61,473 bases of DNA from a virus: the IMG/VR virus record IMGVR_UViG_3300035534_000060; one strand, 5' to 3'. The position numbers and the translations under genes were made by a program. The notes beneath the pieces were generated by a model, which worked only from the letters and a program-made list of their open reading frames with translations, searched no databases and was not told the DNA's origin. This document shows positions 1,619 to 31,219 of the stretch, one piece after another. Each line of letters begins with the position of its first letter. Position 1 is the stretch's first letter.

Positions 1619-1643
1619 TCCAATAAATAAAAGGAGTGATTAT

Positions 1644-3639: not shown

Positions 3640-3812
3640 AATATGAAACCATTTATAGAAATGATAATAAAGAAACATAAGGAGGAAATTGAATGAAAGG
3701 ACAAAAATTTTATCTGTTAAAGCAGAAGACTCCTTCCGTAAGGGAGGAGATGAATGCGTCAATGGGTGTTTAACACAATGTTTAAATAGTATTAAAACTA
3801 ATATATTTTCTG

Positions 3813-5045: not shown

Positions 5046-5293
5046 CAAGATGCTATGTCAAGTTATGTAGTAGATGCATTCATAGATAATCCTGAAAAGG
5101 ATTGTGTAGTGACTGATATATGTAAAAGGCTGCCCATAGGCACAAAAGTTAGCATTACTGTAGAGGTACTGGAATGAATTATGACCCGAATGCTGCCGTT
5201 TGGGGATTAATTGTAGGTGCTGTATATATTGGAGTAAATGTATTTGCAGCAAAATTGGCCGAAAGGAAAAAGAATAAAGATAGGAGTGATTGA

Positions 5294-5638
5294 ATGAGAG
5301 AACTTAAATTCCGTATATGGTGCGAAGAATGGAATAAATTTTTGTATTGGGGATATGTAGATGATATGCTTGTACCTGCCCAATTGCCTGATCATTCTTT
5401 GTTATATATTGAAGAGCATTCTGAGCAACGTCTCAACATATTTGATATAAATGGGTATGCGCCATATGAGAAAGATATAATTAGGAATTATAGGCCAGAT
5501 GGTACTTACACAGTTGAAGTAATTCATGATATGGAAGAATGGCTTCAAAATTTTGGGTATGCTGAAGAAGAATTTGCCGAATATGATGAAATTGAAATTA
5601 TTGGTAATATTCATGAGCACCCAAAACTAATACCTTAA
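5294..5638 (+). CDS. YopX-family protein
   Basis: N-terminal MRELKFRIW and C-terminal IIGNIHEHPKL match YopX hallmarks. Confidence 0.6.
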   Translation: MRELKFRIWCEEWNKFLYWGYVDDMLVPAQLPDHSLLYIEEHSEQRLNIFDINGYAPYEKDIIRNYRPDGTYTVEVIHDMEEWLQNFGYAEEEFAEYDEIEIIGNIHEHPKLIP

Positions 5639-6170
5639 TTTTTTTTATTCTTTTTAATAAAGTAAAGTTGTTTTGTAGTTCATATTATCGGATTTCTGTT
5701 TACTTTAATATTATAGTATATTACTATTATTTACCTATGTGAAACTATTTGTTCACCTATATAAATGTAATTATACTCTGATGTATATATTAAATTTCGA
5801 TAGGTGGGCTGATAGTATTTAATATAAAAACTTGCATCAAAATTTTGAAAAATTATTTTTTTTCTGTGTACTTTAATATTATAGTAATAAGTATTCTATA
5901 TTGTATTATGATATATCACATGTAATAATAATTTATACTGTAAATACAAGGGGCCCAATTTTTCAACCGAAAAAGGGCCAATTTTTTAGGCCCCTTGACT
6001 TAAAGTACACAGAAATAAAGTAGTACATGTCCTAATAATTAAAAACTAATAACAAAAAACATTATCAGGAGAACGATTAGGAAATAAAAACCTTTAATCG
6101 TTATAGGTTTAAACGTTTAAGGTTTTTCATTTATTTTCCCATTAATGTTGAAACCAAACCTATTTATAGA

Positions 6171-6416
6171 ATGGGTGTGTATTTAGAATCGGTGATTAAT
6201 GTGAATATAGAAAGAAATGTAACATTTGATTTGAATGGCCTAAGTATGGAAGAACTGAGCATCCTCAGAGATTCCTTGGAAGAGTCTATTGAAAAATTGG
6301 ATGAATTGTATCAGGATGTCTATAATTTTGAGGCACAACAGAAAAGAGATCGCTATAGTAAAGTCTATAATGTGATTACTGGCGCAATAGATGCTGAATG
6401 GGAAATGTCGAGGTGA
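6171..6416 (+). CDS. Hypothetical protein
   Basis: 81-aa ORF starting about 25 nt after an AAACCTATTTATA promoter (leaderless-like). Confidence 0.4.
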   Translation: MGVYLESVINVNIERNVTFDLNGLSMEELSILRDSLEESIEKLDELYQDVYNFEAQQKRDRYSKVYNVITGAIDAEWEMSR

Positions 6417-6420
6417 TGAT

Positions 6421-6585
6421 ATGGAAGAAATAATTGAAGGGTTCGCTGTAATCATAGTAGCATTTGTGGTGATTATGATACAAGCGGCCATATATGCTCT
6501 ATTAATTTATGGTGTGCTATGGTTCTTAGGCTTGCTATTGGGTGTAGATGTGACTGATGTGATTGTAAATTATATGCAGAGGTGA
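6421..6585 (+). CDS. Small membrane protein
   Basis: Hydrophobic core AVIIVAFVVIMIQAAIYALLIYGVLWFLGLLLG; start context AGGTGATGAT-ATGGAAGAAAT repeated at 6590. Confidence 0.4.
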   Translation: MEEIIEGFAVIIVAFVVIMIQAAIYALLIYGVLWFLGLLLGVDVTDVIVNYMQR

Positions 6586-6589
6586 TGAT

Positions 6590-6931
6590 ATGGAAGAAAT
6601 GACTGAAAAATTTGCGGAAGAGATGGAAGAGTATTTGGCCGATAGAGATATTTCCCTTGATGGTGTTAGTGATCGTTATTTGAAATATACTTTGCAGAAG
6701 ATGCTCAAGGAAGAGGCTGACCCTGCTGAAATGGCGGGCATATGCCTGTTGATGTATCAGCGTAAGAATAATGAAATAGAAAAGTTGGCCAAATTCTTGT
6801 ATATGGATGCCAATGAAGGTAGTTCATGGAATAATATCGATCATTTTGTTAAAGTTGCGTGGAGAATGGAGGCGCAATCTATGCTTAGAAAAGTCGCTCT
6901 ATATGAAAAATTTAAGGAGTCGTGCAAATGA
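6590..6931 (+). CDS. Hypothetical protein
   Basis: 113-aa ORF with the same 22-nt start context as the 6421 ORF. Confidence 0.45.
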   Translation: MEEMTEKFAEEMEEYLADRDISLDGVSDRYLKYTLQKMLKEEADPAEMAGICLLMYQRKNNEIEKLAKFLYMDANEGSSWNNIDHFVKVAWRMEAQSMLRKVALYEKFKESCK

Positions 6932-7092
6932 ATAAGGAAGATGTGCGCATATTTGGGTACGCCTGCATCCTTGTGGGTGTGCCCTATGGCTTCCTTGTGT
7001 GGGCTGATGCCATTAATTATAGTTTGATGGGGCCTGCGTATGCCATTGGAATAACTTTGGGCGGCCTGTTGATTGCGCTGTTGGCGAGGTGA
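6928..7092 (+). CDS. Small membrane protein
   Basis: 54-aa hydrophobic ORF overlapping the previous stop (ATGA). Confidence 0.3.
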   Translation: MNKEDVRIFGYACILVGVPYGFLVWADAINYSLMGPAYAIGITLGGLLIALLAR

Positions 7093-7096
7093 CCCA

Positions 7097-7353
7097 TGGG
7101 GGTAATTGGTCTATAATTATATTTTCTATTTTTAAGGGGTCTTCGGATGGGGGTATCTTTTTTATACTGGTCGGCTGATTGCGATTTTATTTTTGGGCTG
7201 ACCGAAAATTTTTTGTAGGATGACAAATTGCATATGTAACCGATTTGTTACGCATTGGCTGATAGCGATTTTGACCAGTGGGGGTAAAATGCCAATGGGG
7301 GTATTTTTGTGGAAAGGGGTATTTTGAATGGGGGTCAAATTTGAGATGGGGTA
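7097..7353 (+). repeat. Array of about 7 TGGGGGTA-type motifs plus two GGCTGAT(T/A)GCGATTTT repeats
   Basis: Motif copies at about 7097, 7148, 7279, 7296, 7315, 7329, 7347; direct repeats at 7173-7188 and 7257-7272. Confidence 0.7.
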
Positions 7354-7684
7354 TAATGTGGATAAATTTGCCGTTTTTTGGCCTTCAGATTATATCCAGA
7401 TAAGCCTGAGAACGAACAGAGATAGCCATGACAAGCATTTTGACCCTCTACACGACCTATGACCCTCGTAGAGAATTTAAACGCCACACAGACGCTCTCA
7501 CAGCCCCAAAATAGGCCATTCTATCGCCCGCTATCGAAAGCAATATCACAAATATTATTGATGCCCACTGATTTTCGCTATCGGTAGGCACATTTCCTCG
7601 GCCTAATGCCACAAAATTCACTCAATTTTATAACAATTCATACGATCACAATTAAATTCGGACATAAAAATAAAAACTTAATTT

Positions 7685-7813
7685 AAAAATCGTGACAATT
7701 TTGGGCAAAACAATTACTATCAAATAAATTTTTAAAAATCGTGACAAACATTTTAAAAATCGTGATAAAGTTTAAAAATCGTGATTAAAAATCGTGATTA
7801 AAAATCGTGACAA
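7685..7813 (+). repeat. Iteron array: 6 copies of AAAAATCGTGA(C/T)(A/T), last three tandem with 14-bp period
   Basis: Copies at about 7685, 7734, 7755, 7774, 7787, 7800 in an ORF-free region. Confidence 0.8.
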
Positions 7814-7841
7814 AGGTTGGGCCCTTTTAGACTGTAACGGC

Positions 7842-8100
7842 GTTAACATTCGAAAAAATTTTTGAATGTACACATCTGTACATTGATGTACATATCTGTA
7901 CATTGGTGTACACATATGTACAATAGAAGGTTTTTTAGATTGTTAGCCCCGTTAACATTGGCCGATTCTTTTAACTGTAACACTGTTAACAATTTATAGA
8001 GTTAACGGCGTAACGGCCAAATTTAATTTAGGTTGTTCATACTGTTAACTTTATAAATTATTAACGGCGTTAACATCATAAAAAAGCCCCGATTGTTAAC
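7842..8100 (+). repeat. Cluster of 7 GTTAAC palindromes, several within TTAACGGCGTTAAC
   Basis: GTTAAC at 7842, 7951, 7985, 8001, 8044, 8069, 8095. Confidence 0.7.
7867..7922 (+). repeat. Six tandem 10-bp repeats, each beginning with palindromic TGTACA
   Basis: TGTACA at 7867, 7877, 7887, 7897, 7907, 7917 (one helical turn spacing). Confidence 0.8.
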
Positions 8101-8313
8101 GGCATGAACTGTTATAGCGTGTGCCGGCTCTCTCACCTGTCCGGCCTATAGGGCGCCCCGGATACCCTGTGTCTAATTTACTACATGCTTTAAACCTATA
8201 TAAAGGTTTTTATTTATTACAAATAGAAACCTATATATACCATTAGCCCCTATAGAATGTTGCCCTTAGGGGCGGGATGTATGAATGGATGCAATTGAAG
8301 AATTGTATGGTAT

Positions 8314-8390
8314 AAATAGAAACCTATATATACCATTAGCACCTATAGTAGATTGTGGCCAGGGGCGGCCCTAATAAGCCTCAATAATAA
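8314..8390 (+). promoter_or_regulatory. Promoter-leader cassette (AAATAGAAACCTATATATA ... GTGGCCAGGGGCGGCCCTAATAAGCCTCAATAA) for 8407..8595
   Basis: Near-identical 75-bp copy at 8972-9050; partial copy at 8221-8275. Confidence 0.55.
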
Positions 8391-8406
8391 ACAGGAGTTG
8401 TAAGAA

Positions 8407-8595
8407 ATGAGCACAGTATTTTCCGAAGAGAACGGTTACACAAACGGATACTGTCCGGCTTGTGGGTACAATCCGGTAGAACCAGAATTCCCAATCTTCC
8501 AATTATTTGGAGATGGGGAGTATATAAGGGGGCATCAAATATGCCCTAATTGTAGGGAACTGCACCCAATTAATGAAAATATGGACGCAATCTAA
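8407..8595 (+). CDS. Small zinc-ribbon protein
   Basis: CPACG...CPNC pairs; driven by repeated promoter-leader cassette. Confidence 0.45.
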   Translation: MSTVFSEENGYTNGYCPACGYNPVEPEFPIFQLFGDGEYIRGHQICPNCRELHPINENMDAI

Positions 8596-8622
8596 TTCTT
8601 TTTTTTTTGGAGGTTAAGGCAA

Positions 8623-8871
8623 ATGGAATTTGATATTAACGAAAAAATAGCAACGATTCAAGAATGGCCTATAATAATAGAAATCTATTCCATTGATCAT
8701 GGAATAGATGAGAAGATTACATTTAAAAGCTTCGATATTAACGGGCGGCCTATGTCAGCCCGTAAATGCACAAATACAATATACACCAGCCCTAGAGACG
8801 GACGGGCCTATTTCAAACATTTTGGGGCCCGTTACTATCTAGATAAAGCTATTATGGCGGGGGCGGTTTAA
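8623..8871 (+). CDS. Hypothetical protein
   Basis: 82-aa ORF with GGAGG SD. Confidence 0.4.
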   Translation: MEFDINEKIATIQEWPIIIEIYSIDHGIDEKITFKSFDINGRPMSARKCTNTIYTSPRDGRAYFKHFGARYYLDKAIMAGAV

Positions 8872-8971
8872 ATGGATGCTGCAATGATAGGCCTAATAGG
8901 CCTAATCCTTTTAATGGTATTGGGCCTATTCTTAGGCTGTTTGGTTATGATCAAATACTGGATGAGGACAT

Positions 8972-9050
8972 AAAAATAGAAACCTATTTATAGGATAAGC
9001 ACCTATTACTAATTGTGGCCCGGGGCGGCCCTAATAAGCCTCAATAAAAT
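8972..9050 (+). promoter_or_regulatory. Second copy of promoter-leader cassette, for 9068..9622
   Basis: AAAAATAGAAACCTATTTATA plus the same GGCC-rich leader as 8314-8390. Confidence 0.55.
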
Positions 9051-9067
9051 AGAAGGAATGAATAAAC

Positions 9068-9622
9068 ATGAATAAATGTGAAAATAGGATAGATGAAGAG
9101 TACAATAAAACAATTGAAGCCTTCAATAATATGGAGATAGGCAGCGAGGAATTTAACGAATATGGCCTCGATTTTAGCCTAGTCGAGGCGGGCACGTTCG
9201 ATGATCAGCCCGAACCTTATTATAGGTACCAGTTGTCATGGGGCGGCCCTTCGGAGGAAATAAGAATTTTCGAAGGCGGCCGGGCTGAATATTGGTTTAT
9301 GGACTGGTTTGACGGGGCTAGCCGTGAATGCAGCGATGAACCAATTATTAAAGAAATAATAAACTTTTTTGATGAAGTCGGCCTTATAGATTGGACCGCC
9401 CTCATCCCAGAGCGCTGCGAGAATTGCAGCGAGATTATAAGCCCCGAGACAGGCCTATATTGCAATGAATGCCGCCCGTATAACGTGGAAATATCCTTAA
9501 ATGACTTATCACGGGATGAAGTTATAGAGGCCCTCGAAGGAATTATAGAGGCCGTTAAGGATGAATCTGAAAATTTGATAAATGTAGATGATGATTATAC
9601 ATTCATAGAGGAGGCTGAATAA
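9068..9622 (+). CDS. Highly acidic hypothetical protein
   Basis: 184-aa ORF rich in D/E with scattered Cys pairs (CENCSE...CNEC). Confidence 0.45.
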   Translation: MNKCENRIDEEYNKTIEAFNNMEIGSEEFNEYGLDFSLVEAGTFDDQPEPYYRYQLSWGGPSEEIRIFEGGRAEYWFMDWFDGASRECSDEPIIKEIINFFDEVGLIDWTALIPERCENCSEIISPETGLYCNECRPYNVEISLNDLSRDEVIEALEGIIEAVKDESENLINVDDDYTFIEEAE

Positions 9623-9783
9623 ATGCATAACTATAAAGGCATCAAATACTATATTAAAAGGGGCATGAGCGGCCCCCTTTTAATTATTCCGGCGTTTAAT
9701 GTATGCGCCCCGGTCAGTGACGAATTCAAAAAAGAAGACATAATAAAATATGTATGATAAAGTATGTATAAGGAGGAATAAAT

Positions 9784-9930
9784 ATGTTTAATCCGTGCGA
9801 TGATTGTAAGATCAATCCGAAGAACGGCGGGGACGGATGGGCCCTATTCGATGATCTGCCCTGTTATTATAGATGTGCGCCCCGGGATGAGTATCTTAAT
9901 ATGAAAGGTGAAGAGTATCACAAAAAATAA
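9784..9930 (+). CDS. Small Cys-rich protein (48 aa)
   Basis: AAGGAGG SD; CDDC...CYYRC; below the ORF-track size cut-off. Confidence 0.3.
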   Translation: MFNPCDDCKINPKNGGDGWALFDDLPCYYRCAPRDEYLNMKGEEYHKK

Positions 9931-10001
9931 TACTAAAAGATTTTTAAAGCAGGCACTAAAAACTTTAGTCACTGGTAAAAAGAAGAGAGGTCCTAAATTT
10001 A

Positions 10002-10051
10002 AAAGGGGCGGGGCCTCATAAAATACGCCCCTTTATTTTTTACTCTTTTTT
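10002..10051 (+). terminator. Hairpin plus T-tract terminator
   Basis: AAAGGGGCG ... CGCCCCTTT 9-bp stem followed by ATTTTTTACTCTTTTTT. Confidence 0.5.
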
Positions 10052-10256
10052 GCATCACCAATACAATATAGACATATGCTTATTAGGGCATTGAATGGGG
10101 TATATTAAAGACTTTATGCCAAATAGGTACTATGACATAGGTAGAATATTTTAAAGCCTTATATGGGCTTGTATGGATTAATCTATCAAAAACAAAAACC
10201 TTATATATTTTGGGCGCATATAGAGTGTTGCCCCTAATGGGTAGGATTGATAAAAC

Positions 10257-10502
10257 ATGATTGATAAAAAAGAACTATATATAAACGATGATCGGGATGA
10301 GAAATTTATTTCTATATGGGTGAATGAATACCCTATTCATAGCATCAATGGAGATAAAATAAAGATCACTGCAACCTATATACATTTGTATAAGTCCGGC
10401 GAGATTATAACATCATTCCCCCGCCCGGACTATGATGATATATATTATAGTAATATAGAGGCCGGGCTTATAATGGATGCAGTACCTACGGAGGGCCAAT
10501 AA
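10257..10502 (+). CDS. Hypothetical protein
   Basis: 81-aa ORF downstream of an AAAAACCTTATATA promoter. Confidence 0.4.
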   Translation: MIDKKELYINDDRDEKFISIWVNEYPIHSINGDKIKITATYIHLYKSGEIITSFPRPDYDDIYYSNIEAGLIMDAVPTEGQ

Positions 10503-10687
10503 TGGCCCGTTTAACTCTTCAGTATGTGCCCGGGACTAATGGCCCGGGGTTTTATACTATCACTCGTGATGAGGCCACATTCCAATTATTAGAGGATGAT
10601 GATGAGCACCCACATATAAACATATGTGCCCGGATATATATTATAATTAAGGCTATATGTTTAGGCCCATTAAGAAAATTCTTATAA
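10502..10687 (+). CDS. Hypothetical protein
   Basis: 61-aa ORF whose start overlaps the previous stop. Confidence 0.3.
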   Translation: MARLTLQYVPGTNGPGFYTITRDEATFQLLEDDDEHPHINICARIYIIIKAICLGPLRKFL

Positions 10688-10769
10688 ATAAAAACCTTTA
10701 TATAGGATAAACACCTTCTAGTATATGGGGCGAGATAAGCCCCTTAAACAGTAAGGAGAATAAGAAAAT

Positions 10770-10949
10770 ATGCAGAAAAGATATAACAATATGATAAGTA
10801 GGAATGTGGCTATTAAAGCATTGAGCGCCCATTTTGCGCCCGATGTAGGCTATGAGGTAGCTCATGAAATAGTATGTAATATGCGCCCGTGGATTAGGGA
10901 TATGCTTTATTTACAACACATTATGGTACATTGCGAGGAATGTAAATAA
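10770..10949 (+). CDS. Small hypothetical protein (59 aa)
   Basis: AAGGAG SD; followed by GAGGAATG...CATTCCTC hairpin plus TTTT. Confidence 0.3.
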   Translation: MQKRYNNMISRNVAIKALSAHFAPDVGYEVAHEIVCNMRPWIRDMLYLQHIMVHCEECK

Positions 10950-11051
10950 ACATTCCTCTTTTATAAGGGGGCCCATATACAATAACGGGTTTGTGTATAT
11001 GGGGGGTATTTATTATATGTGGGATATTAAATTAAAACTGGAGTTTTATAA

Positions 11052-11270
11052 ATGAGGATTAATATAAGTGGCCCAATATTAAAAGGCCCGGCCGATGATC
11101 AAATAATAGAACTGTTTAAAGAATATGGGTTAACTATTAAAGATGCTGATGATTATTATAAATTAGGTGGCCCTAATTTTTGCAGTCCATATAAATTTAT
11201 AGATTTAAGAAAAAAGTTTACTATCAATGAAATCTATAACATGAAGAATAAATTTTATGTAAAGTATTAA
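11052..11270 (+). CDS. Hypothetical protein
   Basis: 72-aa ORF. Confidence 0.35.
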   Translation: MRINISGPILKGPADDQIIELFKEYGLTIKDADDYYKLGGPNFCSPYKFIDLRKKFTINEIYNMKNKFYVKY

Positions 11271-14133: not shown

Positions 14134-14337
14134 ATCAGAAACTACTAAAACTTTCTTCAGACTTTCACTCTCCTTATTGACATACGGTGTTCGTACTTCT
14201 TCAAACCTTTACGGCGCTTAAAAAATTCTAAAATTTTTGACAGCATCATAAATAAATAAAACCCAAAAGGATAAAAGGTTATTGGTATAGCAAAACTTAA
14301 ATAATTTAAGAACCATTATATAAGTGGTGATAATAAC

Positions 14338-15000
14338 ATGCATGTTATACCTAAAGAAAATTATACACTCGATGCCACGGCAGGCACAATAACTTTGTCG
14401 TCTCCATATGATGACCTTGATTTAGAACAGTTTATCACTGTTGTTGATTTGGATACAAACGATGTTATTTATGATGTACACCTTAAACGTGATGGTGTAA
14501 CATTTGCAAACGGCGTACTCACATACACGGCAGATAACAACATAACCAATGATGATGATGATATACGAATAGTAATAAATGATACATCAGGAACTACGCA
14601 GGCAATTGGTGGGTATAGCACTACACTGGATGCACTTAAAATAGTGGAACAAGCGCCAGTAGACCAGCAAGGACTTGATGAGAAAGTTTTGAATGCTGTA
14701 ACAGCAGCAGGTGCAAGCACTGCTGTGAATGTATTAGATAAATCACGTATCATATTCATAGTAGATGCTACCAATGTGACCACTGGGTTTGATATATCAA
14801 TCGAAGGTAGTCCAAATGGTGACGATTGGGGAGAAGTTGGTATTGAAGATAAACAGGGTGTAGAAGCAGGTAGTATCAACATAAATTCAAATGGTATATA
14901 TCTATATAGAGTAGTTGATGCACCTAAATACATACGTGCAAATATAACCAGTTATACTGATGGAACAGCATCAGCATGGATTCAGGGTGGGGCTATCTAA
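14338..15000 (+). CDS. Hypothetical virion-associated protein
   Basis: 220-aa ORF, Thr/Asp-rich, first plus-strand gene after the island. Confidence 0.4.
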   Translation: MHVIPKENYTLDATAGTITLSSPYDDLDLEQFITVVDLDTNDVIYDVHLKRDGVTFANGVLTYTADNNITNDDDDIRIVINDTSGTTQAIGGYSTTLDALKIVEQAPVDQQGLDEKVLNAVTAAGASTAVNVLDKSRIIFIVDATNVTTGFDISIEGSPNGDDWGEVGIEDKQGVEAGSININSNGIYLYRVVDAPKYIRANITSYTDGTASAWIQGGAI

Positions 15001-15380
15001 TGACATTAGACATAATTAAACCAAAACCAGTCGAAGAACAGAACGATTTGAGTAACGTAGATCTACCAGCAATTGTTGCAGCCGGAATTAATCAGGGCGA
15101 TATTGTAGATTTACATTCATGCGTAGAATTTGTAAATACGCAGATTGAACCTGATATTTCAGGTGATGATGTTGAAGGTACATTCAAATCAATCGTGAAA
15201 GAAGCCAAGCGTATGAGTTCAGATGCCGATAAACTTGCAAGAGAAGGTAAATCTGTTACTGAAATTGAAGCAGAACTTACCGGTAACAACTTCACGTATT
15301 CCGATATTGAAGCAATGAAAATTGAAGTTTATGGAACTGTAACTGAATGGAAGAATGCAATGACAGCAGATGAGGTATGA
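14976..15380 (+). CDS. Hypothetical protein
   Basis: 134-aa ORF. Confidence 0.4.
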   Translation: MDSGWGYLMTLDIIKPKPVEEQNDLSNVDLPAIVAAGINQGDIVDLHSCVEFVNTQIEPDISGDDVEGTFKSIVKEAKRMSSDADKLAREGKSVTEIEAELTGNNFTYSDIEAMKIEVYGTVTEWKNAMTADEV

Positions 15381-15386
15381 TATTCC

Positions 15387-15815
15387 ATGCCTCGTCTTAC
15401 GCTTCCAAGTGAAAGTTGTTGTTTTAGATTAGATTCAGACTACGGCTATCGGCAGCAGTTTCCGATGACGTTCAATGATGTTGGATTAAGTGATGATGGG
15501 TTTGAGACTGGAAGTGTGACTGCACCATTCTTTGAAGAACCTGTTTTCATGTATATTGAATATGATGATACTTATCTGGCTGAAGAATACCCGGATTCAC
15601 AAAGTATTGTGACATATACAGATGGTGAAATTACTATTGATTGTTCTGTAAATGTTATTAAGTGTGTGGATATTTACAGTAGGATACTTACTGCTCACGA
15701 AATTGCTGATAGAAATAATAATGTGACTTTCCAGTTTTTGAATGATGTGCCTACTCCTACACAGCAGAAATATTTGGATTGGCAGAATAGTAGAGTAATC
15801 GGGAGGTCACGATAA
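15387..15815 (+). CDS. Hypothetical protein
   Basis: 142-aa ORF. Confidence 0.4.
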   Translation: MPRLTLPSESCCFRLDSDYGYRQQFPMTFNDVGLSDDGFETGSVTAPFFEEPVFMYIEYDDTYLAEEYPDSQSIVTYTDGEITIDCSVNVIKCVDIYSRILTAHEIADRNNNVTFQFLNDVPTPTQQKYLDWQNSRVIGRSR

Positions 15816-17518
15816 TGACACGGACACTTGAAGAATTACGAGAATATCTTGTTGGCGAATGGCTCTTCGATAATGACTTCCTTGATACATCTGGAAATGG
15901 CAATCATGGTACTCCTACTGATATAGAATGGAAACCTACTGCAAGAGGACTGAAACCGTATTTTAATGGTAGTAGTTCTTATATTGATTGTCAAAACCAA
16001 TTAACAGAATCAAATAATATCACTGTTTCTGCATGGGTATATCCAAACATAAATGAAGATGGGGATAAAACGATATTGTCTCAATTTTCAGATGATATAT
16101 ACTCGGGTGCATATACACTTCGGTATAGAGCCAAAAAAAACGGTTATCACTTTTCAGTATGGACTGATGATATATATGTAGATGCTCCAATAGCATCTGG
16201 ATTTTTAAACGGTCAATGGATTCATTTTGTCGGTACTTATGATGGCTCATATATAAAATTATATCAAAATGGTGAATTAGTTGCATCTGATACACTTACT
16301 GGAAACATAAATTATGATGATGATGATGGTGATAGATTCGTGATTGGTGCTAGGGAATATAATTTCCCAGGTACTACTTGGGATGGTAACATTGGCGAAA
16401 TTGGTGTATATTCAACCGCACTCACCGATGATGAAGTCCTTGCACTCTACGAAAGCACCAAACATGCATATGGGGTTGTTCCAGCAGAACGTTCGTTTAC
16501 CCACCGATTACAACCGGAAGTCGATGCAAATACTGTCGCTGCTTTCGATATGAGTACCAAGAACAGCGATGGTACACTCATGGATTTGTCAGGAAATAGT
16601 AATCATGGTGATATACAGGGGGCTGTCAGAGCGGGTGGATATTTCACCGATGGGATGATGTCAGGTTATGGTAATCATAATATAATACAATTCAATCATA
16701 ATAATGATATTGATTTCAGTAAAGAATTATATTTAGAACTCATTATAACTATACCTGATTGGACAAAGGTTGGTAGTTACACACCTGTAATACAAAAGAC
16801 AAATGAACCAAATAATCTAAAAAATGGGTTTAATTTGCGTAAAAATTCTGATAATAATAAATTAACATTTTCGATTGGCAATAGTACAAACACTTCATAT
16901 GAACAAACCAATGTGTTATCTGAAAATAGAAAATATTTAATACAATGTTATTATGAATCAGGTGTTGGTGGAGAAATTTGGTGTGATGGGGAATATTTAA
17001 ATTCACTATCATCTATTGGAGATATTGATCTTAATACAGAACCTATAAACATTTTTAATCGTTCTGATAGGTTGAGCGATGGTCAATATATAATTCAATA
17101 TGCTAAAATAATGAATGTAGTACCAACTGATTCACAAATAAAATCCAGATTCAACTCACTTGCTAACTTACCGCTCTACACCTTCGATGCTTCCAAGTAT
17201 CCCACAAGTAGCGGTTGGACTGCAAATGTACCATACAGCAGCATGTCGATAAGTTCCGGTGAATTCTCATTCACTGATGATGGACAATTACAATGTGATA
17301 GTGCAGGTTCATTTTCACTTCGGAATTCCCATCCCTTCGATGCTGATGAATACATCAAATTGACAATCAATGGTGTCGAATATGCAGGTACAGGTAGTGT
17401 AACTGAAGGTACTGTCACTGTATCCCTGACACAAGGCAGCAATAAGATTAGTGTCAATATGGGTACTGGTGATGTAATAGACGGTATCGATATACAGTTC
17501 AGAGAACCTGTTGAGTAA
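15815..17518 (+). CDS. LamG/concanavalin-A-like lectin domain protein (putative receptor-binding protein)
   Basis: Two LamG-like units: SGNGNHGT...ITVSAWVYP...WIHFVGTYDG...KLYQNGELV...GEIGVYSTALTDDEV and a second GNSNHGD unit. Confidence 0.55.
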   Translation: MTRTLEELREYLVGEWLFDNDFLDTSGNGNHGTPTDIEWKPTARGLKPYFNGSSSYIDCQNQLTESNNITVSAWVYPNINEDGDKTILSQFSDDIYSGAYTLRYRAKKNGYHFSVWTDDIYVDAPIASGFLNGQWIHFVGTYDGSYIKLYQNGELVASDTLTGNINYDDDDGDRFVIGAREYNFPGTTWDGNIGEIGVYSTALTDDEVLALYESTKHAYGVVPAERSFTHRLQPEVDANTVAAFDMSTKNSDGTLMDLSGNSNHGDIQGAVRAGGYFTDGMMSGYGNHNIIQFNHNNDIDFSKELYLELIITIPDWTKVGSYTPVIQKTNEPNNLKNGFNLRKNSDNNKLTFSIGNSTNTSYEQTNVLSENRKYLIQCYYESGVGGEIWCDGEYLNSLSSIGDIDLNTEPINIFNRSDRLSDGQYIIQYAKIMNVVPTDSQIKSRFNSLANLPLYTFDASKYPTSSGWTANVPYSSMSISSGEFSFTDDGQLQCDSAGSFSLRNSHPFDADEYIKLTINGVEYAGTGSVTEGTVTVSLTQGSNKISVNMGTGDVIDGIDIQFREPVE

Positions 17519-17558
17519 TCGACAGGTTTTTCATATTTTTAATACTTTTTAATATGAG

Positions 17559-17753
17559 GTGAAAACTATGGAAGATTTGATAGGTACATTTATAGGCGGA
17601 GTTATCACAGGCGCAGGAATTTTGTATGGGTATTGGAAATCTATACCAAAAAAGAAAAAAGAAGCCGCATTTGAGGAATTAATAAAATCTATGGAAGATG
17701 GAGAAATTTCTGTCTCAGAAGGTATGAATGCAGCAAAAAAGTTAATTTTTTAA
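17559..17753 (+). CDS. Small membrane protein
   Basis: GxxxG-rich hydrophobic N-terminus followed by KKKKE. Confidence 0.4.
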   Translation: MKTMEDLIGTFIGGVITGAGILYGYWKSIPKKKKEAAFEELIKSMEDGEISVSEGMNAAKKLIF

Positions 17754-20877: not shown

Positions 20878-21301
20878 ATTTTCAGGTACAAAGGCATTTT
20901 CTAAATTAGCCAAAACTACTGCAAGTTTAAAATTAGGAGAAGAGTTTGCAAAAGAAATGGCTGGTAAAAAATTGAAAGCAGAGATGAAACGCACTATAGA
21001 TAAAGAAATGGTTAATTGGCCTGCATTAAGTCCAGTCACCGTATCTAGAAAAGGGAATGATAAAATATTGGTTGAGACTAGTGAAATGCGTGATTCAATT
21101 GATTTTAAAGATCATGGCAAATATATAACTATAGGTGTGCATGAGGATGCTCCTAATAATAGGTCATTAATAGCACTAATTCATGAACATGGTGCGCCAG
21201 ATGCTAATATTCCTGCTCGCCCATTCATGCAACCTACATGGGATAGGGAAAAAAGAGAAACAATTAAAGTGTTTGATAGATCGCTGAAGAAGTTCTTATA
21301 A
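20849..21301 (+). CDS. Minor head or morphogenesis protein (putative)
   Basis: 150 aa overlapping portal end; HEHGAPDANIPARPFM resembles a conserved morphogenesis-protein motif. Confidence 0.3.
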   Translation: MGNLRMINVKFSGTKAFSKLAKTTASLKLGEEFAKEMAGKKLKAEMKRTIDKEMVNWPALSPVTVSRKGNDKILVETSEMRDSIDFKDHGKYITIGVHEDAPNNRSLIALIHEHGAPDANIPARPFMQPTWDREKRETIKVFDRSLKKFL

Positions 21302-21333
21302 CTCTCAGTTATATTTTCTTCTTTTTTTATTAC

Positions 21334-21390
21334 ACCCTATGCTTAAAGTACACAGAAATAAAATAATTCTGTTTACTTTAATATATAGAG
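21334..21390 (+). repeat. 57-bp element with internal imperfect palindrome AAAGTACACAGAA/TTCTGTTTACTTT
   Basis: Exact reverse complement of 44190-44246; partial copies at 5861-5876 and 5999-6015. Confidence 0.85.
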
Positions 21391-21480
21391 AATAAGGTCA
21401 ATATTAAATACAAACCTATAAAAGTTTACATAAAATAGAAAGATTAATATAGGGTTAGTTATATAAAGGGATATAGGACT

Positions 21481-28355: not shown

Positions 28356-31219
28356 TGGTAGCAATTGAGATAAGTACATTAGCAGAACTTGATGCAGTTC
28401 GGAATGACCTTACTGCTGATTATGTGCTTGTGAATGATATAGATGCTTCTGATACAAGTACATGGAATAGTGGTGCAGGATTTGAGCCGATGGGCAATTT
28501 CACAGGAACATTCGATGGAAACGGACACACAATCTCAAATCTTTATATTAATAGATCAATAGAAAACTCATCTGGGTTATTTAGAGTAGTAGAAGGAACA
28601 CTATCAAACACACAAATAATCGGTGCAAATATTACTCGTGGAAAGTATGTCGGGATTCTTGCAGGTACAGTAAGAAGTGGTGGACAGGTATATCAATGTT
28701 CATCATCTGGAACTATCGGTGGCAGTCGTATTGGTGGTTTGATAGGCTATGTTTTGAATGGTTCAATTGTACGTAATTGTTCATCGAGTGCTACTGTTAT
28801 AGGAACTGGTGATTATGTAGGTGGACTTATTGGTTGGTTAGACTATCCCAATACAATTCTTGAAAATTGTTATTCAGTTGGCGAAGTATCACATACAGGT
28901 ACACCCGATTTTATAGGTGGATTAATAGGTCATACTCGTGATAACCCAATTATTATAAATTCCTACTATGATACAGAAACCTCTGGACAATCTGATACGG
29001 GTAAAGGAGAACCACGTACAACAGCAGAAATGCAGACTCAGGAAACCTTTGCTGATTGGGATTTTGATACAGTTTGGACAATGGATGGTTATCCAGCACT
29101 AAGAGTATTCTATCCAGATTTGGAGACAGATGACGAAGGTGTAATAGAGATAGGTACATTGTCTGAACTCAATGCAATCAGATATGATTTGACTGCAAGT
29201 TACAAACTTACTGCCGACATTGACGCAAGTATAACACAGGAATGGAATCTGTATGCAATGGTAGACAAAGTCAATGATGCTACCGAATGGGATTCAGGCA
29301 CAAAGACAAATACCATAGTTAATGCAGAAGATAACTTGACATTAGATACAGGACAGACATCAGGTACATGGTTACAGAAATGGAATCTTACAGACATTAG
29401 GGATTTAGCAAACAGTAAAATAAGTTTTGATGCTATCACACCTACAGATACTTCCGTAACTGTTGAAGCAGGATTAGGTGACGAAACAACCGAACCAGCA
29501 AGTTATACAGCCGTTACTTCCGGTGACAGTATTCCCGGAACTGCCGTTAATGACGACTTGAGTGCAAATTATCTGTACATTAAGGTATCATTGGGTACAA
29601 CTGGTGCAGAGATGCCGGAAGTCATACAGGTATATACAGAAGTATATAGTAACGAATACGCAGGATTTGACCCAATTTATATTTTCACAGGAACATTCGA
29701 TGGAAACGGACACACAATCTCAAATTTGTATATTAATAGACCAACAGAAGACTGGGTTGGGTTATTTAAAAGACTACGTGGAACTCTACAGAACGTAACA
29801 ATGACTGGACTAGATATTACAGCATTATCACGAGTAGGAATGGTGGGGGAAACTATCGCACAAGGATTAATAAAAAATTGTCATGTATCCGGCACAATTA
29901 CTGGATTACAAAGATATTCTGGGTTAATTTCAGGTGCTGTAAATGATAGTATAGTGGAACAATGTAGTAGTACCGGAAGTGTGAGTGGTAATAGTTCGGG
30001 TTTTACTGGTGGCGGATTAATAGGATATATGTTGGATGGTGCTGTTTTAAAAAATTCGCATTCAGATGCAGACGTTACCATGACAGATAGGGCAGGGGGT
30101 GCAGTCGGACTGGTGGAAAGAGTAGATACAACAATTCAAAATTGTTACTCTATAGGTACTGTATCTGCATCAAGTGACGTAGGTGGGTTGGTCGGACGCT
30201 TTGATGGATTAGGAACAATATCAAACTCCTATTATGATACAGAAACCTCTGGACAATCTGATACGGGTAAAGGAGAACCACGTACAACAGCAGAATTGAA
30301 ACAAAGTTACCCTATAAGTAAACCTATTATAGAATCTTTTGATTTAGATAAGATTATAGTAAGAAATAATAATCTATATGATGCTGTGTTGACTATGAAA
30401 CGGGGTAACCCACTTATAAAGAATGATTATTCAGGAGTCAATAATTTATATAGTAGTATTAATAGTCGATTTAAATACATACCTGATAATACTACACCAT
30501 TTATAGATAGCCAAATGGATGGTACAGGAAATATTTCACAAACTTTCGATAATGATAATTATGCTATTTACATCGGTGGTAATGAGACTACAGGCATAAG
30601 GTTATCTGTTTCACCTAAACAATTGACAGTCACATCTAATTTAGATGACAATGTATTATATTCCGAAGATTATAATACTACTGACACAACAGTATTTTCT
30701 GGCGGTATAGCACTCGATAATTCCAACATTTATATTGAATGTGAGGATATGACTACTGCTAATGGTGCATCATTATATTCTGGTAGTGATGCTAGCGGTG
30801 GCAGTGCTGTTAAATTCGATGCGCAGGATGAAATGTGTTACAATTATTTTGGTTTAGGTACTGATTTACCATTGGGTACATATAAATTAGTAGTTAGGGC
30901 TAAACAGGATAGTGCTGTGACTGATGACCTTACTATGAATATTAGGAATAAAACTGAAGCAAGTATTTTTGCTACAGAAAATAAAACTTTATCATTGGGA
31001 TGGGAATATTATATATTTGATGTTACATTTACAGAAGCAGTTGAAGGTGACGTATTAAGCCTTGAACTTCTTAAAAATACTACAACTTCAAATAACATTT
31101 ATGTTGACTATGTGGTGTGGTTACCAATTTCATCTCCAAATAAGAATTTCCCAAAAGATTTGGCACATCAAGCATTAGTCGAATCTAATTCATCCAGAGA
31201 ATTAATTGGGAGATTATAA
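28355..31219 (+). CDS. GLUG-motif repeat protein (putative tail fibre or adhesin) with internal module duplication
   Basis: Repeated GGLIG/GLFG units; two copies of FTGTFDGNGHTISNLYINR and SYYDTETSGQSDTGKGEPRTTAE with long identical nucleotide stretches. Confidence 0.6.
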   Translation: MVAIEISTLAELDAVRNDLTADYVLVNDIDASDTSTWNSGAGFEPMGNFTGTFDGNGHTISNLYINRSIENSSGLFRVVEGTLSNTQIIGANITRGKYVGILAGTVRSGGQVYQCSSSGTIGGSRIGGLIGYVLNGSIVRNCSSSATVIGTGDYVGGLIGWLDYPNTILENCYSVGEVSHTGTPDFIGGLIGHTRDNPIIINSYYDTETSGQSDTGKGEPRTTAEMQTQETFADWDFDTVWTMDGYPALRVFYPDLETDDEGVIEIGTLSELNAIRYDLTASYKLTADIDASITQEWNLYAMVDKVNDATEWDSGTKTNTIVNAEDNLTLDTGQTSGTWLQKWNLTDIRDLANSKISFDAITPTDTSVTVEAGLGDETTEPASYTAVTSGDSIPGTAVNDDLSANYLYIKVSLGTTGAEMPEVIQVYTEVYSNEYAGFDPIYIFTGTFDGNGHTISNLYINRPTEDWVGLFKRLRGTLQNVTMTGLDITALSRVGMVGETIAQGLIKNCHVSGTITGLQRYSGLISGAVNDSIVEQCSSTGSVSGNSSGFTGGGLIGYMLDGAVLKNSHSDADVTMTDRAGGAVGLVERVDTTIQNCYSIGTVSASSDVGGLVGRFDGLGTISNSYYDTETSGQSDTGKGEPRTTAELKQSYPISKPIIESFDLDKIIVRNNNLYDAVLTMKRGNPLIKNDYSGVNNLYSSINSRFKYIPDNTTPFIDSQMDGTGNISQTFDNDNYAIYIGGNETTGIRLSVSPKQLTVTSNLDDNVLYSEDYNTTDTTVFSGGIALDNSNIYIECEDMTTANGASLYSGSDASGGSAVKFDAQDEMCYNYFGLGTDLPLGTYKLVVRAKQDSAVTDDLTMNIRNKTEASIFATENKTLSLGWEYYIFDVTFTEAVEGDVLSLELLKNTTTSNNIYVDYVVWLPISSPNKNFPKDLAHQALVESNSSRELIGRL

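What the first reader, a model, noticed from the sequence alone, without database searches (positions are those of the whole stretch)
21334..21390. 57-bp palindrome-containing element present in exact inverted copies at two module boundaries, with split partial copies at a third
21334-21390 (ACCCTATGCTTAAAGTACACAGAAATAAAATAATTCTGTTTACTTTAATATATAGAG) is the exact reverse complement of 44190-44246. Each copy contains an imperfect 13-bp inverted repeat. Partial arms TTTCTGTGTACTTTAA (5861-5876; variant at 5694) and TTAAAGTACACAGAAA (5999-6015) flank a 122-bp segment with a GGGGCC...GGCCCC hairpin. A short direct repeat ACTCTCAGTTATA accompanies both full copies (21301 and 44271). All copies lie in intergenic regions at module boundaries, including the divergent promoter region at 44.2 kb, which suggests a regulator-binding site or a recombination or mobile-element scar.
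Basis: seen in the sequence. Interest (0 to 1): 0.5.

Follow-up and report, generated by a model that had tools for sequence, protein, structure and literature searches.

The report
Duplicated two-way promoter cassette, archaeal virus
The repeated 57-bp palindrome is most likely a two-way promoter/operator cassette that a tailed virus of methane-producing archaea uses at two gene-module boundaries, with single-arm copies at a third; this is a known kind of viral control element, found here in an uncharacterised virus lineage.

Summary
21334-21390 is the exact reverse complement of 44190-44246, and identity runs to 71 nt with one mismatch. A 15-mer core, TTCTGTKTACTTTAA ("M"), occurs seven times exactly, against 0.7 expected by chance. 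The window is a complete ~61-kb tailed virus, probably of a Methanohalophilus-like methanogen, so its promoters should be archaeal BRE/TATA promoters. Each cassette carries two outward-facing TATA-like boxes (CTTTAAT, CTTTAAG) around a dyad-symmetric centre. At 44.2 kb it lies between the divergent helicase-primase operon and the rightward operon. At 21.3 kb it follows a T-run and precedes the head genes. Diverged relatives carry cassettes at the same two positions. Their outer blocks are invariant, and their inner arms differ by lineage but stay symmetric. The unit is not in host genomes, is not a terminator or a MITE, and recurs in independent assemblies. Best reading: a duplicated bidirectional promoter/operator cassette, analogous to the halovirus HF2 intergenic promoter repeats. 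The regulator, the start sites and the exact TATA geometry remain inferred. Interest is low to moderate.

The parts
21327..21397 (.). Cassette copy B: the 71-nt inverted-repeat arm, core 57-mer at 21334-21390. It lies between the terminase/portal/150-aa gene block and the 440-aa/scaffold-like/major-capsid genes.
   Evidence: (I1). Flanking genes.
44183..44253 (.). Cassette copy C, the reverse complement of copy B. It lies in the 203-bp divergent region between the Rad3-type helicase/AEP-primase/RecU operon (- strand) and the rightward operon that starts at 44349.
   Evidence: Genes.
21367..21381 (+). M(T) core TTCTGTTTACTTTAA. Its 3' end plus the flank forms the TATA-like box TTTAATATATAG (21377-21388), which faces the head genes.
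21343..21357 (-). M(G) core TTCTGTGTACTTTAA. Its 3' end plus the flank forms TTTAAGCATAGGGT, which faces leftward, antisense to the 150-aa gene.
21358..21366 (.). 9-bp all-A/T spacer ATAAAATAA at the dyad centre. With the inner arm ends it reads AGAAAT-AAAATAA-TTCT, a possible shared BRE-TATA-BRE core under the alternative geometry.
   Evidence: Geometry compared.
44199..44213 (-). M(T) core facing the helicase start codon at 44145. The TATA-like box is at 44203-44190.
44223..44237 (+). M(G) core facing the rightward operon. The TATA-like TTTAAGCATAGGGT is at 44233-44246.
5684..5718 (+). Single unit A1: ATTATCGGAT-TTCTGTTTACTTTAA-TATTATAGTA. No ORF follows it.
   Evidence: (D14).
5852..5886 (+). 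Single unit A2: ATTATTTTTT-TTCTGTGTACTTTAA-TATTATAGTA. It matches the cassette's M(G) half, including the spacer, at 96% over 26 nt.
   Evidence: (D14, I5).
5992..6022 (-). Single unit A3, with M at 6000-6014 on the - strand. It converges on A2 across 123 nt.
   Evidence: (I3, I13).
5947..5997 (.). GC-rich hairpin CAAGGGGCC...GGCCCCTTG between units A2 and A3. On the - strand it is followed by UUGUAUUU. It may be the body of a short non-coding transcript.
   Evidence: the - strand of 5890-6025 folds at -36.1 kcal/mol, z -4.3..
21297..21313 (.). P2 palindrome TATAACT-CTC-AGTTATA. It overlaps the stop codon of the 150-aa gene.
   Evidence: The 14-15-nt spacing to the cassette is fixed across five cassettes.
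44266..44284 (.). P2 palindrome ATATTACT-CTC-AGTTATAT on the M(G) side of copy C.
21314..21332 (+). T-run TTTTCTTCTTTTTTTATTA directly upstream of copy B. It is archaeal-terminator-like and would end the terminase/portal transcription unit.
   Evidence: That oligo-T acts as the archaeal termination signal is from general knowledge.
21435..21452 (+). Canonical-type BRE/TATA motif ATAGAAAGATTAATATAG, 29 nt upstream of the 440-aa gene. It is conserved in relatives and is a second promoter downstream of the cassette.
44289..44308 (+). Canonical-type BRE/TATA motif CCAAACCTATATGTATAAGG, upstream of the gene starting at 44349.

Best explanation
The element is a dyad-symmetric, bidirectional promoter/operator cassette of an archaeal tailed virus. 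It is present as two full inverted copies and three single-arm units.

Each full cassette has two outward-facing TATA-like boxes. One is CTTTAATATATAG on the M(T) side. The other is CTTTAAGCATAGGG on the M(G) side. They flank a lineage-specific palindromic centre made of the inner arms plus a 9-bp A/T spacer.

At 44.2 kb the M(T) side would start the helicase-primase-RecU operon and the M(G) side the rightward operon. At 21.3 kb the same cassette sits just after a T-run terminator. Its M(T) side faces the head genes (440-aa protein, scaffold/decoration-like protein, major capsid protein). Its M(G) side would give a leftward antisense or short transcript through the P2 hairpin.

The invariant 15-mer M, which lacks the A-rich BRE of the virus's ordinary promoters, would mark these promoters as a separate class. 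That class would be read or controlled by a dimeric virus- or host-encoded regulator bound to the dyad, so replication and head genes would share one switch.

The three units at 5.7-6.0 kb precede no ORF. They would drive short non-coding RNAs or act as extra regulator sites.

Shown: the sequence facts, the positions, the conservation pattern and the symmetry.

Inferred: the archaeal host, promoter activity, which A/T block is the TATA box, and the existence and identity of the regulator.
For: 1. Host and promoter grammar.
- The window's TnpB is 92% identical to that of Methanohalophilus sp. DAL1 and 77-84% identical to those of other Methanosarcinaceae.
- The replication genes are an AEP primase, a Rad3/XPD-type helicase whose nearest named cellular homologues are archaeal (Nitrososphaeria), a family B polymerase and an RFC-like ATPase.
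- Fourteen intergenic sites carry AAATAGAAACC-TTTATATA, a BRE+TATA-like motif, 35-79 nt upstream of start codons. This fits Methanolobus promoter and 5'UTR statistics.

2. Position. The cassettes lie exactly where promoters are needed: in a divergent intergenic region (C), and after a T-run and before the head genes (B). No canonical motif lies on the helicase side of site C.

3. Sharp conservation. M is identical in 5 independent copies apart from one T/G position, while identity drops to about 3/5 immediately outside it.

4. Relatives.
- Genomes with helicases 50-78% identical and 440-aa proteins 42-57% identical carry cassettes at site C or site B.
- In the 8-sequence alignment the outer blocks TTATTAnACnCTATnCTTAnA and CTTTAA are invariant, while the centre differs by lineage.
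- Dyad symmetry is kept: 85% of cells pair in the 15-bp arms, 6 pairs change on both sides, 0 of 500 shuffles reach the covariation score, and slid controls give 24-48%.
- In L127 each 38-nt arm is a full unit ending in ATAGT.
- In L130 the unit GAAAAAAATAATT-TTCTCTTTACTTTAA-TATTA matches window unit A2.

5. Precedent.
- Halovirus HF2 has 58-bp intergenic repeats with an upstream motif, a TATA-containing motif TCTTTAAGTC and a TSS motif. They were shown to be promoters and are positionally conserved in the genus.
- Archaeal promoters can fire both ways from symmetric BRE-TATA-BRE cores, with TSSs about 49-50 bp apart.

6. The unit is not generic. M+ATAG gives only 29 scattered singletons in 185,579 genomes, none in Methanosarcinales.
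Against: - There are no transcription data, so promoter activity and start sites are predictions.
- The segment immediately upstream of the outer TATA-like boxes (GTKTAC) does not resemble a canonical purine-rich BRE.
- A second geometry, with the central A/T spacer as a shared TATA and ATAG at the TSSs 45-51 bp apart, fits the window and L127 equally well. It fails in L276 and L134, whose centres are not TATA-like.
- No DNA-binding protein could be assigned. Pfam, PHROGs and PDB searches of small ORFs gave only weak HTH hints for 2220-2786 and 3066-3308. The conserved 64-aa neighbour folds as a plain two-helix hairpin.
- Some relatives have the cassette at only one site or at neither (L129, L282, L314), so the pairing of replication and head genes is not universal.
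- Exactness of the 71-nt copies could reflect recent duplication or gene conversion rather than selection.
- The covariation sample is about 5 independent lineages.
Confidence: 0.6

Rival explanations
1. The units are ordinary constitutive promoters copied by descent. They are promoters, but M and the dyad have no regulator. Their exactness reflects recent duplication or gene conversion, and the palindrome is just two promoters back to back.
For: - Copies B and C are 70/71 identical, and in UViG_3300028034 the similarity extends to 104 nt including P2. This looks like a duplicated block.
- No regulator was found.
- Archaeal TATA/TBP symmetry alone gives bidirectional firing.
Against: - M stays exact in the three site-A units while their flanks have diverged.
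- Inner arms differ between lineages yet remain symmetric, with changes on both sides.
- M-like units persist at 50-56% helicase identity.
Confidence: 0.15
2. The elements are replication origins. Inverted M repeats would act like origin-recognition boxes flanking A/T-rich DNA next to the helicase/primase genes, with site A (inverted M copies flanking a 123-nt A/T-rich stretch) as a further origin.
For: - Copy C abuts the helicase-primase operon.
- The palindromes have an all-A/T centre.
- Site A has inverted M copies around an A/T-rich segment.
- L127 has a 38-nt-arm perfect palindrome with an A/T-rich 35-nt centre.
Against: - The 9-bp spacer is too short to be an unwinding element.
- The same cassette sits in the middle of the structural genes.
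- Relatives have it at site B only (L283 with L129).
- M does not resemble the archaeal ORB consensus with its G-string (recalled from memory, not scored here). No Orc1/Cdc6 or MCM domain turned up among the ORFs scanned.
- A much better origin candidate exists at 6930-8200, with four iteron families.
Confidence: 0.1
3. The element is a recombination substrate or scar. The 71-bp inverted repeats would mediate inversion of the 22.8-kb segment between them, or serve as linker sequences for module exchange. Alternatively they are remnants of a miniature inverted-repeat element.
For: - Long inverted repeats at module boundaries.
- Near-identical cassettes in L275 (site C) and L284 (site B), from different samples.
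- Terminal inverted arms of 23 nt at 5854-6022 (I13).
Against: - The window and its relatives are collinear across both cassettes, at 94.8% through site B and 96% through site C, with no breakpoint. The gene order terminase-to-tail/RecU-primase-helicase is the same in all relatives examined.
- No invertase or integrase domain was found in the ORFs scanned.
- There is no target-site duplication at 5854/6022. The interior of the putative MITE occurs only at the orthologous locus of one close relative.
- The real mobile element in this genome is an unrelated TnpB IS.
Confidence: 0.07
4. The element is a transcribed RNA hairpin that acts as a terminator, processing site or stabiliser.
For: The 71-mer folds well as RNA: -14.6 and -20.6 kcal/mol, z -4.1 and -5.3.
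Against: - No T-run follows the stem on either strand, and the terminator scan found nothing at the sites.
- At site C the element lies between divergent genes, where no upstream unit reads through it.
- A palindrome folds well by construction.
- There is no Rfam match.
Confidence: 0.05

Closest known systems
Intergenic repeat promoters of halovirus HF2 and other haloferacalesviruses (class I, 58 bp; PMC8707807)
   Same: - Both are repeated ~57-58-bp intergenic elements in a tailed archaeal virus, placed at the heads of transcription units.
- Each contains a TATA-type motif: HF2 beta TCTTTAAGTC, against ACTTTAAG/ACTTTAAT here.
- Conserved motifs lie upstream and downstream of the TATA motif.
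- Positions are conserved among related viruses.
- Some HF2 repeats are active in both orientations.
   Different: - HF2 repeats are single, directional units in 7+2 copies. Here two copies are fused head to head into a palindrome, and that palindrome is duplicated in inverted orientation.
- There is no sequence homology beyond the short TATA-like motif.
- The hosts differ: haloarchaea versus a probable methanogen.
- HF2 activity and start sites were measured. Nothing is measured here.
Bidirectional BRE-TATA-BRE core promoters of Archaea (Pyrococcus furiosus; PMC6640164)
   Same: - A symmetric A/T core is flanked by inverted purine-rich elements: AGAAAT-AAAATAA-(A)TTTCT.
- Under this geometry the two ATAG motifs lie 45-51 bp apart, matching the ~49-50 bp TSS spacing reported.
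   Different: - In P. furiosus these are mostly by-products that give non-functional antisense RNA. Here both directions face genes at site C, and the whole unit is conserved and duplicated.
- The central-TATA reading fails in two related lineages.
Palindromic operators of dimeric archaeal and viral transcription regulators at or next to BRE/TATA (for example SSV1 F55 sites, TrmB/Lrp-type operators; from general knowledge)
   Same: - Dyad symmetry is kept through compensatory change.
- The site lies directly against the TATA-like boxes.
- Several sites in one genome would form a small regulon.
   Different: - No cognate protein has been identified.
- Half-sites of 15 bp with 24-bp centre spacing are long for a simple dimer.
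Origin palindromes between divergent replication genes (for example herpes simplex oriL/oriS; from general knowledge)
   Same: An A/T-centred palindrome lies between divergently transcribed genes, one side encoding replication proteins, and it is present in more than one copy in inverted orientation.
   Different: - There is no initiator protein and no unwinding element.
- One copy lies inside the structural module.
- A separate iteron-rich region (6930-8200) is the better origin candidate.

Membership tests
Archaeal BRE/TATA core promoter | An A/T-rich TATA box of about 8 bp, placed so that a start about 26 nt downstream lies upstream of a gene on the same strand | tested here: met
   TTTAATAT lies at 44203-44196 (-), 51 nt from the helicase ATG. 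TTTAATAT lies at 21377-21384 (+), upstream of 21481. TTTAAGCA lies at 44233-44240 (+), upstream of 44349. The outer CTTTAA is invariant in 8 cassettes.
Archaeal BRE/TATA core promoter | A purine-rich BRE immediately upstream of the TATA box | tested here: inconclusive
   Upstream of the outer boxes is GTKTAC, unlike the AGAAAC of the genome's 14 canonical motifs. Under the central-TATA geometry AGAAAT fits, but that geometry fails in L276 and L134.
Archaeal BRE/TATA core promoter | Transcription initiates at the predicted site | not testable with these tools
   No transcriptome data are available for this virus.
Virus intergenic promoter repeats (HF2 type) | A repeated motif confined to intergenic regions and absent elsewhere in the genome | tested here: met
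   There are 7 exact M copies, all intergenic, and none at 1-2 mismatches.
Virus intergenic promoter repeats (HF2 type) | Position and orientation conserved among related viruses | tested here: met
   Cassettes lie upstream of the helicase (L275, L276, L127, L130, L134) and upstream of the 440-aa gene (L283, L284, L281). They are not present in every relative (L129, L282, L314).
Virus intergenic promoter repeats (HF2 type) | Sequence homology to the HF2 repeats | tested here: not met
   Only the short TATA-like CTTTAAG is shared. There are no nucleotide matches to GenBank phages or archaeal viruses. This is an analogue, not a homologue.
Bidirectional BRE-TATA-BRE promoter | One symmetric TATA flanked by inverted BREs, with two TSSs about 50 bp apart | tested here: inconclusive
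   The window core ACAGAA-ATAAAATAA-TTCTGT fits, with the ATAG motifs 45-51 bp apart. The centres of L276 and L134 are not TATA-like. The TSSs are unknown.
Miniature inverted-repeat transposable element (5854-6022) | Terminal inverted repeats | tested here: met
   23-nt arms, 91% complementary (I13).
Miniature inverted-repeat transposable element (5854-6022) | A target-site duplication and multiple dispersed copies of the whole unit | tested here: not met
   The flanks GAAAAAT and GTACATG do not match. The interior is found only at the orthologous site of one near-identical relative among 2.9 million viral contigs, and not elsewhere in the window.
Intrinsic terminator | A stem-loop followed by a T-run (bacterial type) or an oligo-T tract (archaeal type) at the end of a transcription unit | tested here: not met
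   No T-run follows the stem on either strand, and the scan finds no terminator at the three sites. The T-run at 21314-21332 lies upstream of the cassette, not within it.
Archaeal ORB-type replication origin | ORB or mini-ORB repeats with a G-string flanking an A/T-rich unwinding element next to an initiator gene | tested here: inconclusive
   I did not score M against an ORB model; the lack of resemblance to the ORB consensus is judged from memory. The spacer is 9 bp. No Orc1/Cdc6 or MCM domain appears in the ORFs scanned. GGGGGTA iterons lie elsewhere, at 7098-7345. Replication itself is not testable here.
Invertible segment (Gin/Hin/Cin type) | Inverted crossover sites with an adjacent serine invertase gene, and both orientations observed | tested here: not met
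   No recombinase domain was found in the ORFs scanned. All relatives have the same orientation of the 22.8-kb segment.

The most novel reading that the evidence does not exclude
The cassette is the operator of a so far unrecognised regulator, viral or host, whose specificity co-evolves with the lineage-specific inner arms. That regulator would couple expression of the replication operon, the head-gene block and a pair of convergent small RNAs at 5.7-6.0 kb. This would be a compact temporal switch in a family of methanogen viruses for which no gene regulation is known.
Probability: 0.25. Interest if true: 0.5.

Novelty: new member of a known kind. Interest (0 to 1): 0.3.

Why it matters
Viruses of methanogens are poorly known, and nothing is known about how this lineage times its genes.

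If the cassette is a shared promoter/operator, it gives three things:
- a ready-made regulon: helicase-primase-RecU, the head genes, and the non-coding units at 5.7-6.0 kb;
- short defined DNA probes for fishing out the regulator;
- compact bidirectional promoter parts for Methanosarcinaceae genetics.

It also shows that repeated promoter cassettes, so far documented experimentally in haloviruses, occur in an unrelated archaeal virus group.

On its own it is an ordinary kind of element. The surprise value is small.

Tried and rejected
- **Bacterial sigma-70 reading.** The scans gave no more promoter-like sites than shuffles and no consistent -35/-10 spacing around M. I dropped this once the host looked archaeal.
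- **Terminator.** No T-run follows the stem.
- **Known RNA families and tRNAs.** None were found. The miRNA-model hits at 7831-7959 reflect the TGTACA repeats.
- **Generic or host element.** The 15-mer alone gives many chance hits in IMG/VR. M+ATAG in 185,579 genomes gives 29 unrelated singletons.
- **MITE.** No target-site duplication and no dispersed copies.
- **Mosaic breakpoint or inversion.** Relatives are collinear across the cassettes.
- **Both sites sharing a different cassette version in a second lineage.** I could not get both sites from one genome. L275 (site C) and L284 (site B) share a nearly identical variant but come from different short contigs. A scan for that variant in IMG/VR found nothing, and the conserved left block found only the close relatives.
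- **Finding the regulator.** Pfam, PHROGs and PDB sequence searches of about 50 ORFs gave only weak HTH hints, for 2220-2786 and 3066-3308. The AF2 model of the conserved 64-aa neighbour is a two-helix hairpin, which is uninformative.
- **The metagenome scan with the helicase profile.** It was swamped by distant homologues.
- **ATAG as a fixed initiator.** It lies 19-22 nt from the TATA start in 7 of 14 canonical promoters, but at other distances in M units under either geometry. It does not settle which A/T block is the TATA box.
Full report
**1. Observation**

The 57-mer at 21334-21390 is the exact reverse complement of 44190-44246. The inverted identity extends to 71 nt, 21327-21397 versus 44183-44253, with one mismatch at 21333.

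Inside each copy, two 15-bp arms differ at one position (T/G) and are separated by the 9-bp spacer ATAAAATAA. The arms are TTAAAGTACACAGAA and TTCTGTTTACTTTAA. Weaker outer arms, CCCTAT and ATAGAG, make the whole 57-mer a quasi-palindrome.

The 15-mer core M = TTCTGTKTACTTTAA occurs seven times with no mismatch: 5694+, 5862+, 6000-, 21343-, 21367+, 44199-, 44223+. No further copies appear at 1-2 mismatches. Chance expectation is 0.72, and 0 of 100 shuffles reach 7.

The accompanying ACTCTCAGTTATA belongs to a separate small palindrome, which I call P2: TATAACT-CTC-AGTTATA at 21297-21313 and 44266-44284.

The repeat is not an assembly artefact. IMG/VR contigs from three other samples carry the same cassettes. 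One 60.5-kb genome has both copies, which differ from each other by one or two bases.

**2. What the window is**

The window is a complete viral genome with a 357-bp terminal redundancy, giving a unit length of 61,116 bp (D1/D8). Its GC content is 35%.

Genes identified by domain searches:
- terminase large subunit, a portal-like protein, an HK97/encapsulin-type major capsid protein and a tape-measure-like minor tail protein;
- a Rad3/XPD-type helicase, a 920-aa AEP primase and RecU;
- a family B DNA polymerase and an RFC-like ATPase;
- ribonucleotide reductase, thymidylate synthase, dCTP deaminase and a Dam-type methyltransferase.

Nothing in GenBank phages is close. There was no blastn hit, and the capsid and helicase proteins are below 30% identity to anything there.

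The best host clue is an IS200/IS605 TnpB gene at 3813-4925. It is 92% identical to TnpB of Methanohalophilus sp. DAL1 and 77-84% identical to those of M. mahii, Methanolobus and Methanosalsum. The nearest named cellular helicase homologues are also archaeal. I therefore treat the virus as a tailed archaeal virus of a Methanosarcinaceae host. This is an inference.

Consistent with it, 14 intergenic sites carry AAATAGAAACC-TTTATATA 35-79 nt upstream of start codons. From general knowledge this is the BRE+TATA pattern of methanogen promoters. The distances fit the promoter and 5'UTR statistics of Methanolobus psychrophilus.

Transcription units, read from gene orientation:
- + strand, 295 to 11270
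- - strand, 14133 to 11518
- + strand, 14338 to 39045
- - strand, 44145 to 39060
- + strand, 44349 to the end

**3. Where the element sits**

- **Copy C** lies in the 203-bp divergent region between the helicase-primase-RecU operon and the rightward operon. There is no canonical BRE/TATA motif on the helicase side.
- **Copy B** lies in the 179-bp gap after the terminase/portal/150-aa genes. It is directly preceded by P2 and the T-run TTTTCTTCTTTTTTT, which looks like an archaeal terminator. It is followed by two canonical-type promoter motifs and the 440-aa, scaffold/decoration-like and capsid genes.
- **Site A** (5640-6170) is non-coding. It holds two direct units and one inverted unit, with a GC-rich hairpin between the converging pair. 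No ORF follows any of the three.

**4. Anatomy of a unit**

Aligning the five independent copies shows M fully conserved apart from the T/G position. Identity falls to about 3/5 immediately downstream and is partial upstream, where ATTATTTT persists.

The 3' end of M plus its flank forms a TATA-like box:
- TTTAATATATAG on the M(T) sides of B and C;
- TTTAATATTATAG at units A1 and A2;
- TTTAAGCATAGGG on the M(G) sides of B and C;
- TTTAAGTC at unit A3.

In halovirus HF2, the experimentally defined TATA-containing motif of the class I intergenic repeat promoters is TCTTTAAGTC.

**5. Relatives**

Helicase homologues at 50-78% identity and homologues of the 440-aa protein at 39-78% identity gave contigs with conserved synteny. 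Cassettes at the two positions are as follows.

| Relative | Site | What is there |
|---|---|---|
| L275 | C | Cassette with different arms |
| L276 | C | Cassette with different arms |
| L127 | C | 38-nt perfect arms, each AAAAATTAATAATTTTA-TGTGCTGTTTTAGTAT-ATAGT |
| L130 | C | Left half is 17/18 identical to the window |
| L134 | C | Perfect 11-bp arms TTAAAGTAAAG / CTTTACTTTAA |
| L283 | B | TGTTTACTTTAATA is exact at 42% protein identity |
| L284 | B | Cassette with different arms |
| L281 | B | Partial cassette at a contig end |

Some genomes have a cassette at only one position (L283 at site B with L129 lacking it at site C; L127 at site C with L282 lacking it at site B). L314 has none at its site B, and that genome's site C (L278) shows only a degenerate, A/T-rich version.

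In the 8-cassette alignment the outer blocks are invariant: TTATTAnACnCTATnCTTAnA on the left and CTTTAA on the right. The inner arms and spacer differ by lineage.

Dyad symmetry is nevertheless maintained:
- 85% of cells pair in the 15-bp arm helix.
- Six pairs show changes on both sides.
- 0 of 500 shuffles reach the observed covariation score.
- Slid controls give 24-48% pairing.

The sample is only about five independent lineages, so this is moderate evidence.

P2 keeps a fixed 14-15-nt distance from the left block in five cassettes, while its loop flips between CTC and GAG/GAC. In UViG_3300028034 the similarity between copies B and C runs for 104 nt and includes P2. The duplicated block is therefore larger than 71 nt.

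**6. Mechanism**

The simplest account is a bidirectional promoter/operator cassette.

I prefer the outer-TATA geometry. In it, two back-to-back promoters use the invariant CTTTAAT and CTTTAAG boxes, and the variable symmetric centre lies just upstream of both. The elements that host TBP would read are then the invariant ones, and the lineage-specific part is where a regulator would bind.

Predicted starts lie about 26-30 nt outside the boxes. That gives a 5'UTR of about 30 nt for the helicase.

The non-canonical segment in the BRE position, GTKTAC versus AGAAAC, suggests these promoters are weak on their own. They may depend on, or be gated by, a dimeric factor bound to the dyad.

An alternative geometry treats the A/T spacer and inner arm ends, AGAAAT-AAAATAA-(A)TTTCT, as one shared BRE-TATA-BRE core. 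The ATAG motifs, 45-51 bp apart, would then be the two start sites. This matches the approximately 49-50 bp spacing shown for Pyrococcus bidirectional promoters and the 38-nt arms of L127. It fails for L276 and L134, whose centres are not TATA-like.

Either way, the same switch would serve the replication operon, the head-gene block and the non-coding units at site A. All of this is inferred. No transcript or binding data exist.

**7. Rivals**

- **Replication origin.** Adjacency to the helicase and primase genes and the A/T centre argue for it. The region 6930-8200 is the better origin candidate. It has four iteron families: ATGGGGGTA, TTTAAAAATCGTGAYAAA x6, TGTACA every 10 bp x6, and GTTAACGGCGTTAAC-like.
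- **Recombination or inversion.** Relatives are collinear at about 95-96% across both cassettes, gene order is constant, and no recombinase was found.
- **MITE.** There is no target-site duplication and there are no dispersed copies.
- **RNA hairpin or terminator.** No T-run follows the stem, and copy C lies between divergent genes.
- **Generic or host element.** M+ATAG yields 29 unrelated singletons in 185,579 genomes, roughly what I estimate chance would give, and none is in Methanosarcinales.
- **Neutral recent duplication.** This is plausible for the exactness of the 71-nt copies. It does not explain exact M in the diverged site-A units or the maintained symmetry across lineages.

**8. Comparison with what is known, and verdict**

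The closest analogue is the set of HF2 halovirus intergenic repeats. These are 58-bp units with upstream, TATA and TSS motifs, proven promoter activity and positional conservation. The present element works like these but is not homologous to them. It differs in being fused into a palindrome and duplicated in inverted orientation.

It is a new member of a known kind of element.

Interest is low to moderate (0.3). The main value is as an entry point to gene regulation in an uncharacterised methanogen-virus lineage.

Noticed in passing
window 3709-5023 (tnpB 3813-4925); L033 4293-4415; L121 5678-5916: The window carries an IS200/IS605-type TnpB element whose protein is 92% identical to that of Methanohalophilus sp. 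DAL1. The close relative UViG_3300028034 lacks it at this site. Instead it carries a ~240-bp mini-element made of the two IS ends at a different place, next to the equivalent of window 17568. The element therefore appears to be mobile within this virus lineage.
   Followed up: partly
window 689, 2830, 6155, 8226, 8319, 8979, 10194, 10691, 44290, 44712, 45089, 50639, 55527, 60073 (+ strand): A second, larger repeat family, AAATAGAAACC-TTTATATA, looks like canonical archaeal BRE+TATA promoters. It occurs almost only in the non-structural parts of the genome. ATAG lies 19-22 nt downstream of the TATA start in 7 of the 14 copies.
   Followed up: partly
window 8255-8290, 8350-8375, 9010-9035, 10225-10245, 44745-44765, 45120-45140: Many of the canonical promoters are followed, at about the predicted 5' end of the transcript, by a short GC-rich hairpin such as GTGGCCAGGGGCGGCC or GTTGTCGTCAAGGCGAC. 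This may be a conserved leader structure (D7).
   Followed up: no
window 6930-8200: A 1.3-kb non-coding region holds four iteron families: ATGGGGGTA about 7 times (7098-7345), TTTAAAAATCGTGAYAAA 6 times (7682-7814), TGTACA phased every 10 bp 6 times (7866-7925), and GTTAACGGCGTTAAC-like repeats (7838-8110). It is a likely origin, partition or packaging region. The weak Rfam miRNA-model hits there reflect the TGTACA palindromes.
   Followed up: partly
window 1-357 and 61243-61473: A 357-bp terminal redundancy is 98% identical between its two copies. It is either a direct terminal repeat or a circular-assembly overlap, and it implies a 61,116-bp unit genome (D1/D8).
   Followed up: no
window 47421-47984 and 48490-49110: Two paralogous Zn-ribbon proteins are 76-87% identical at the nucleotide level in blocks. 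They flank the dCTP deaminase gene. Hits to HNH or unknown PHROG families are weak (D4/D10/D17).
   Followed up: partly
window 5890-6025, - strand: The strand read from unit A3 folds into a strong hairpin (-36.1 kcal/mol, z -4.3) followed by UUGUAUUU. It converges with unit A2, so this may be a sense/antisense pair of small RNAs.
   Followed up: partly
L284 720-1000: One relative has a GC-rich non-coding insert of about 300 nt between the 146-aa gene and its site-B cassette. ARAGORN finds no tRNA in it.
   Followed up: partly
window 44512-44706; L275 1056-1250: A basic 64-aa protein with a weak DUF5771 hit is conserved right next to the cassette in a diverged relative. The single-sequence AF2 model is a two-helix hairpin with pLDDT 85. 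Its function is unknown.
   Followed up: partly
window 14311-17568 versus L121 5916-7603: The block encoding the 220-, 134-, 142- and 567-aa (Laminin_G_3) proteins is replaced by shorter, unrelated sequence in the close relative. It is a variable region at the start of the structural arm.
   Followed up: no
window 28475-28635 / 29660-29820 and 28957-29032 / 30223-30298: The 954-aa GLUG-motif tail protein gene contains internal direct repeats that are 76-96% identical (D5/D12).
   Followed up: no
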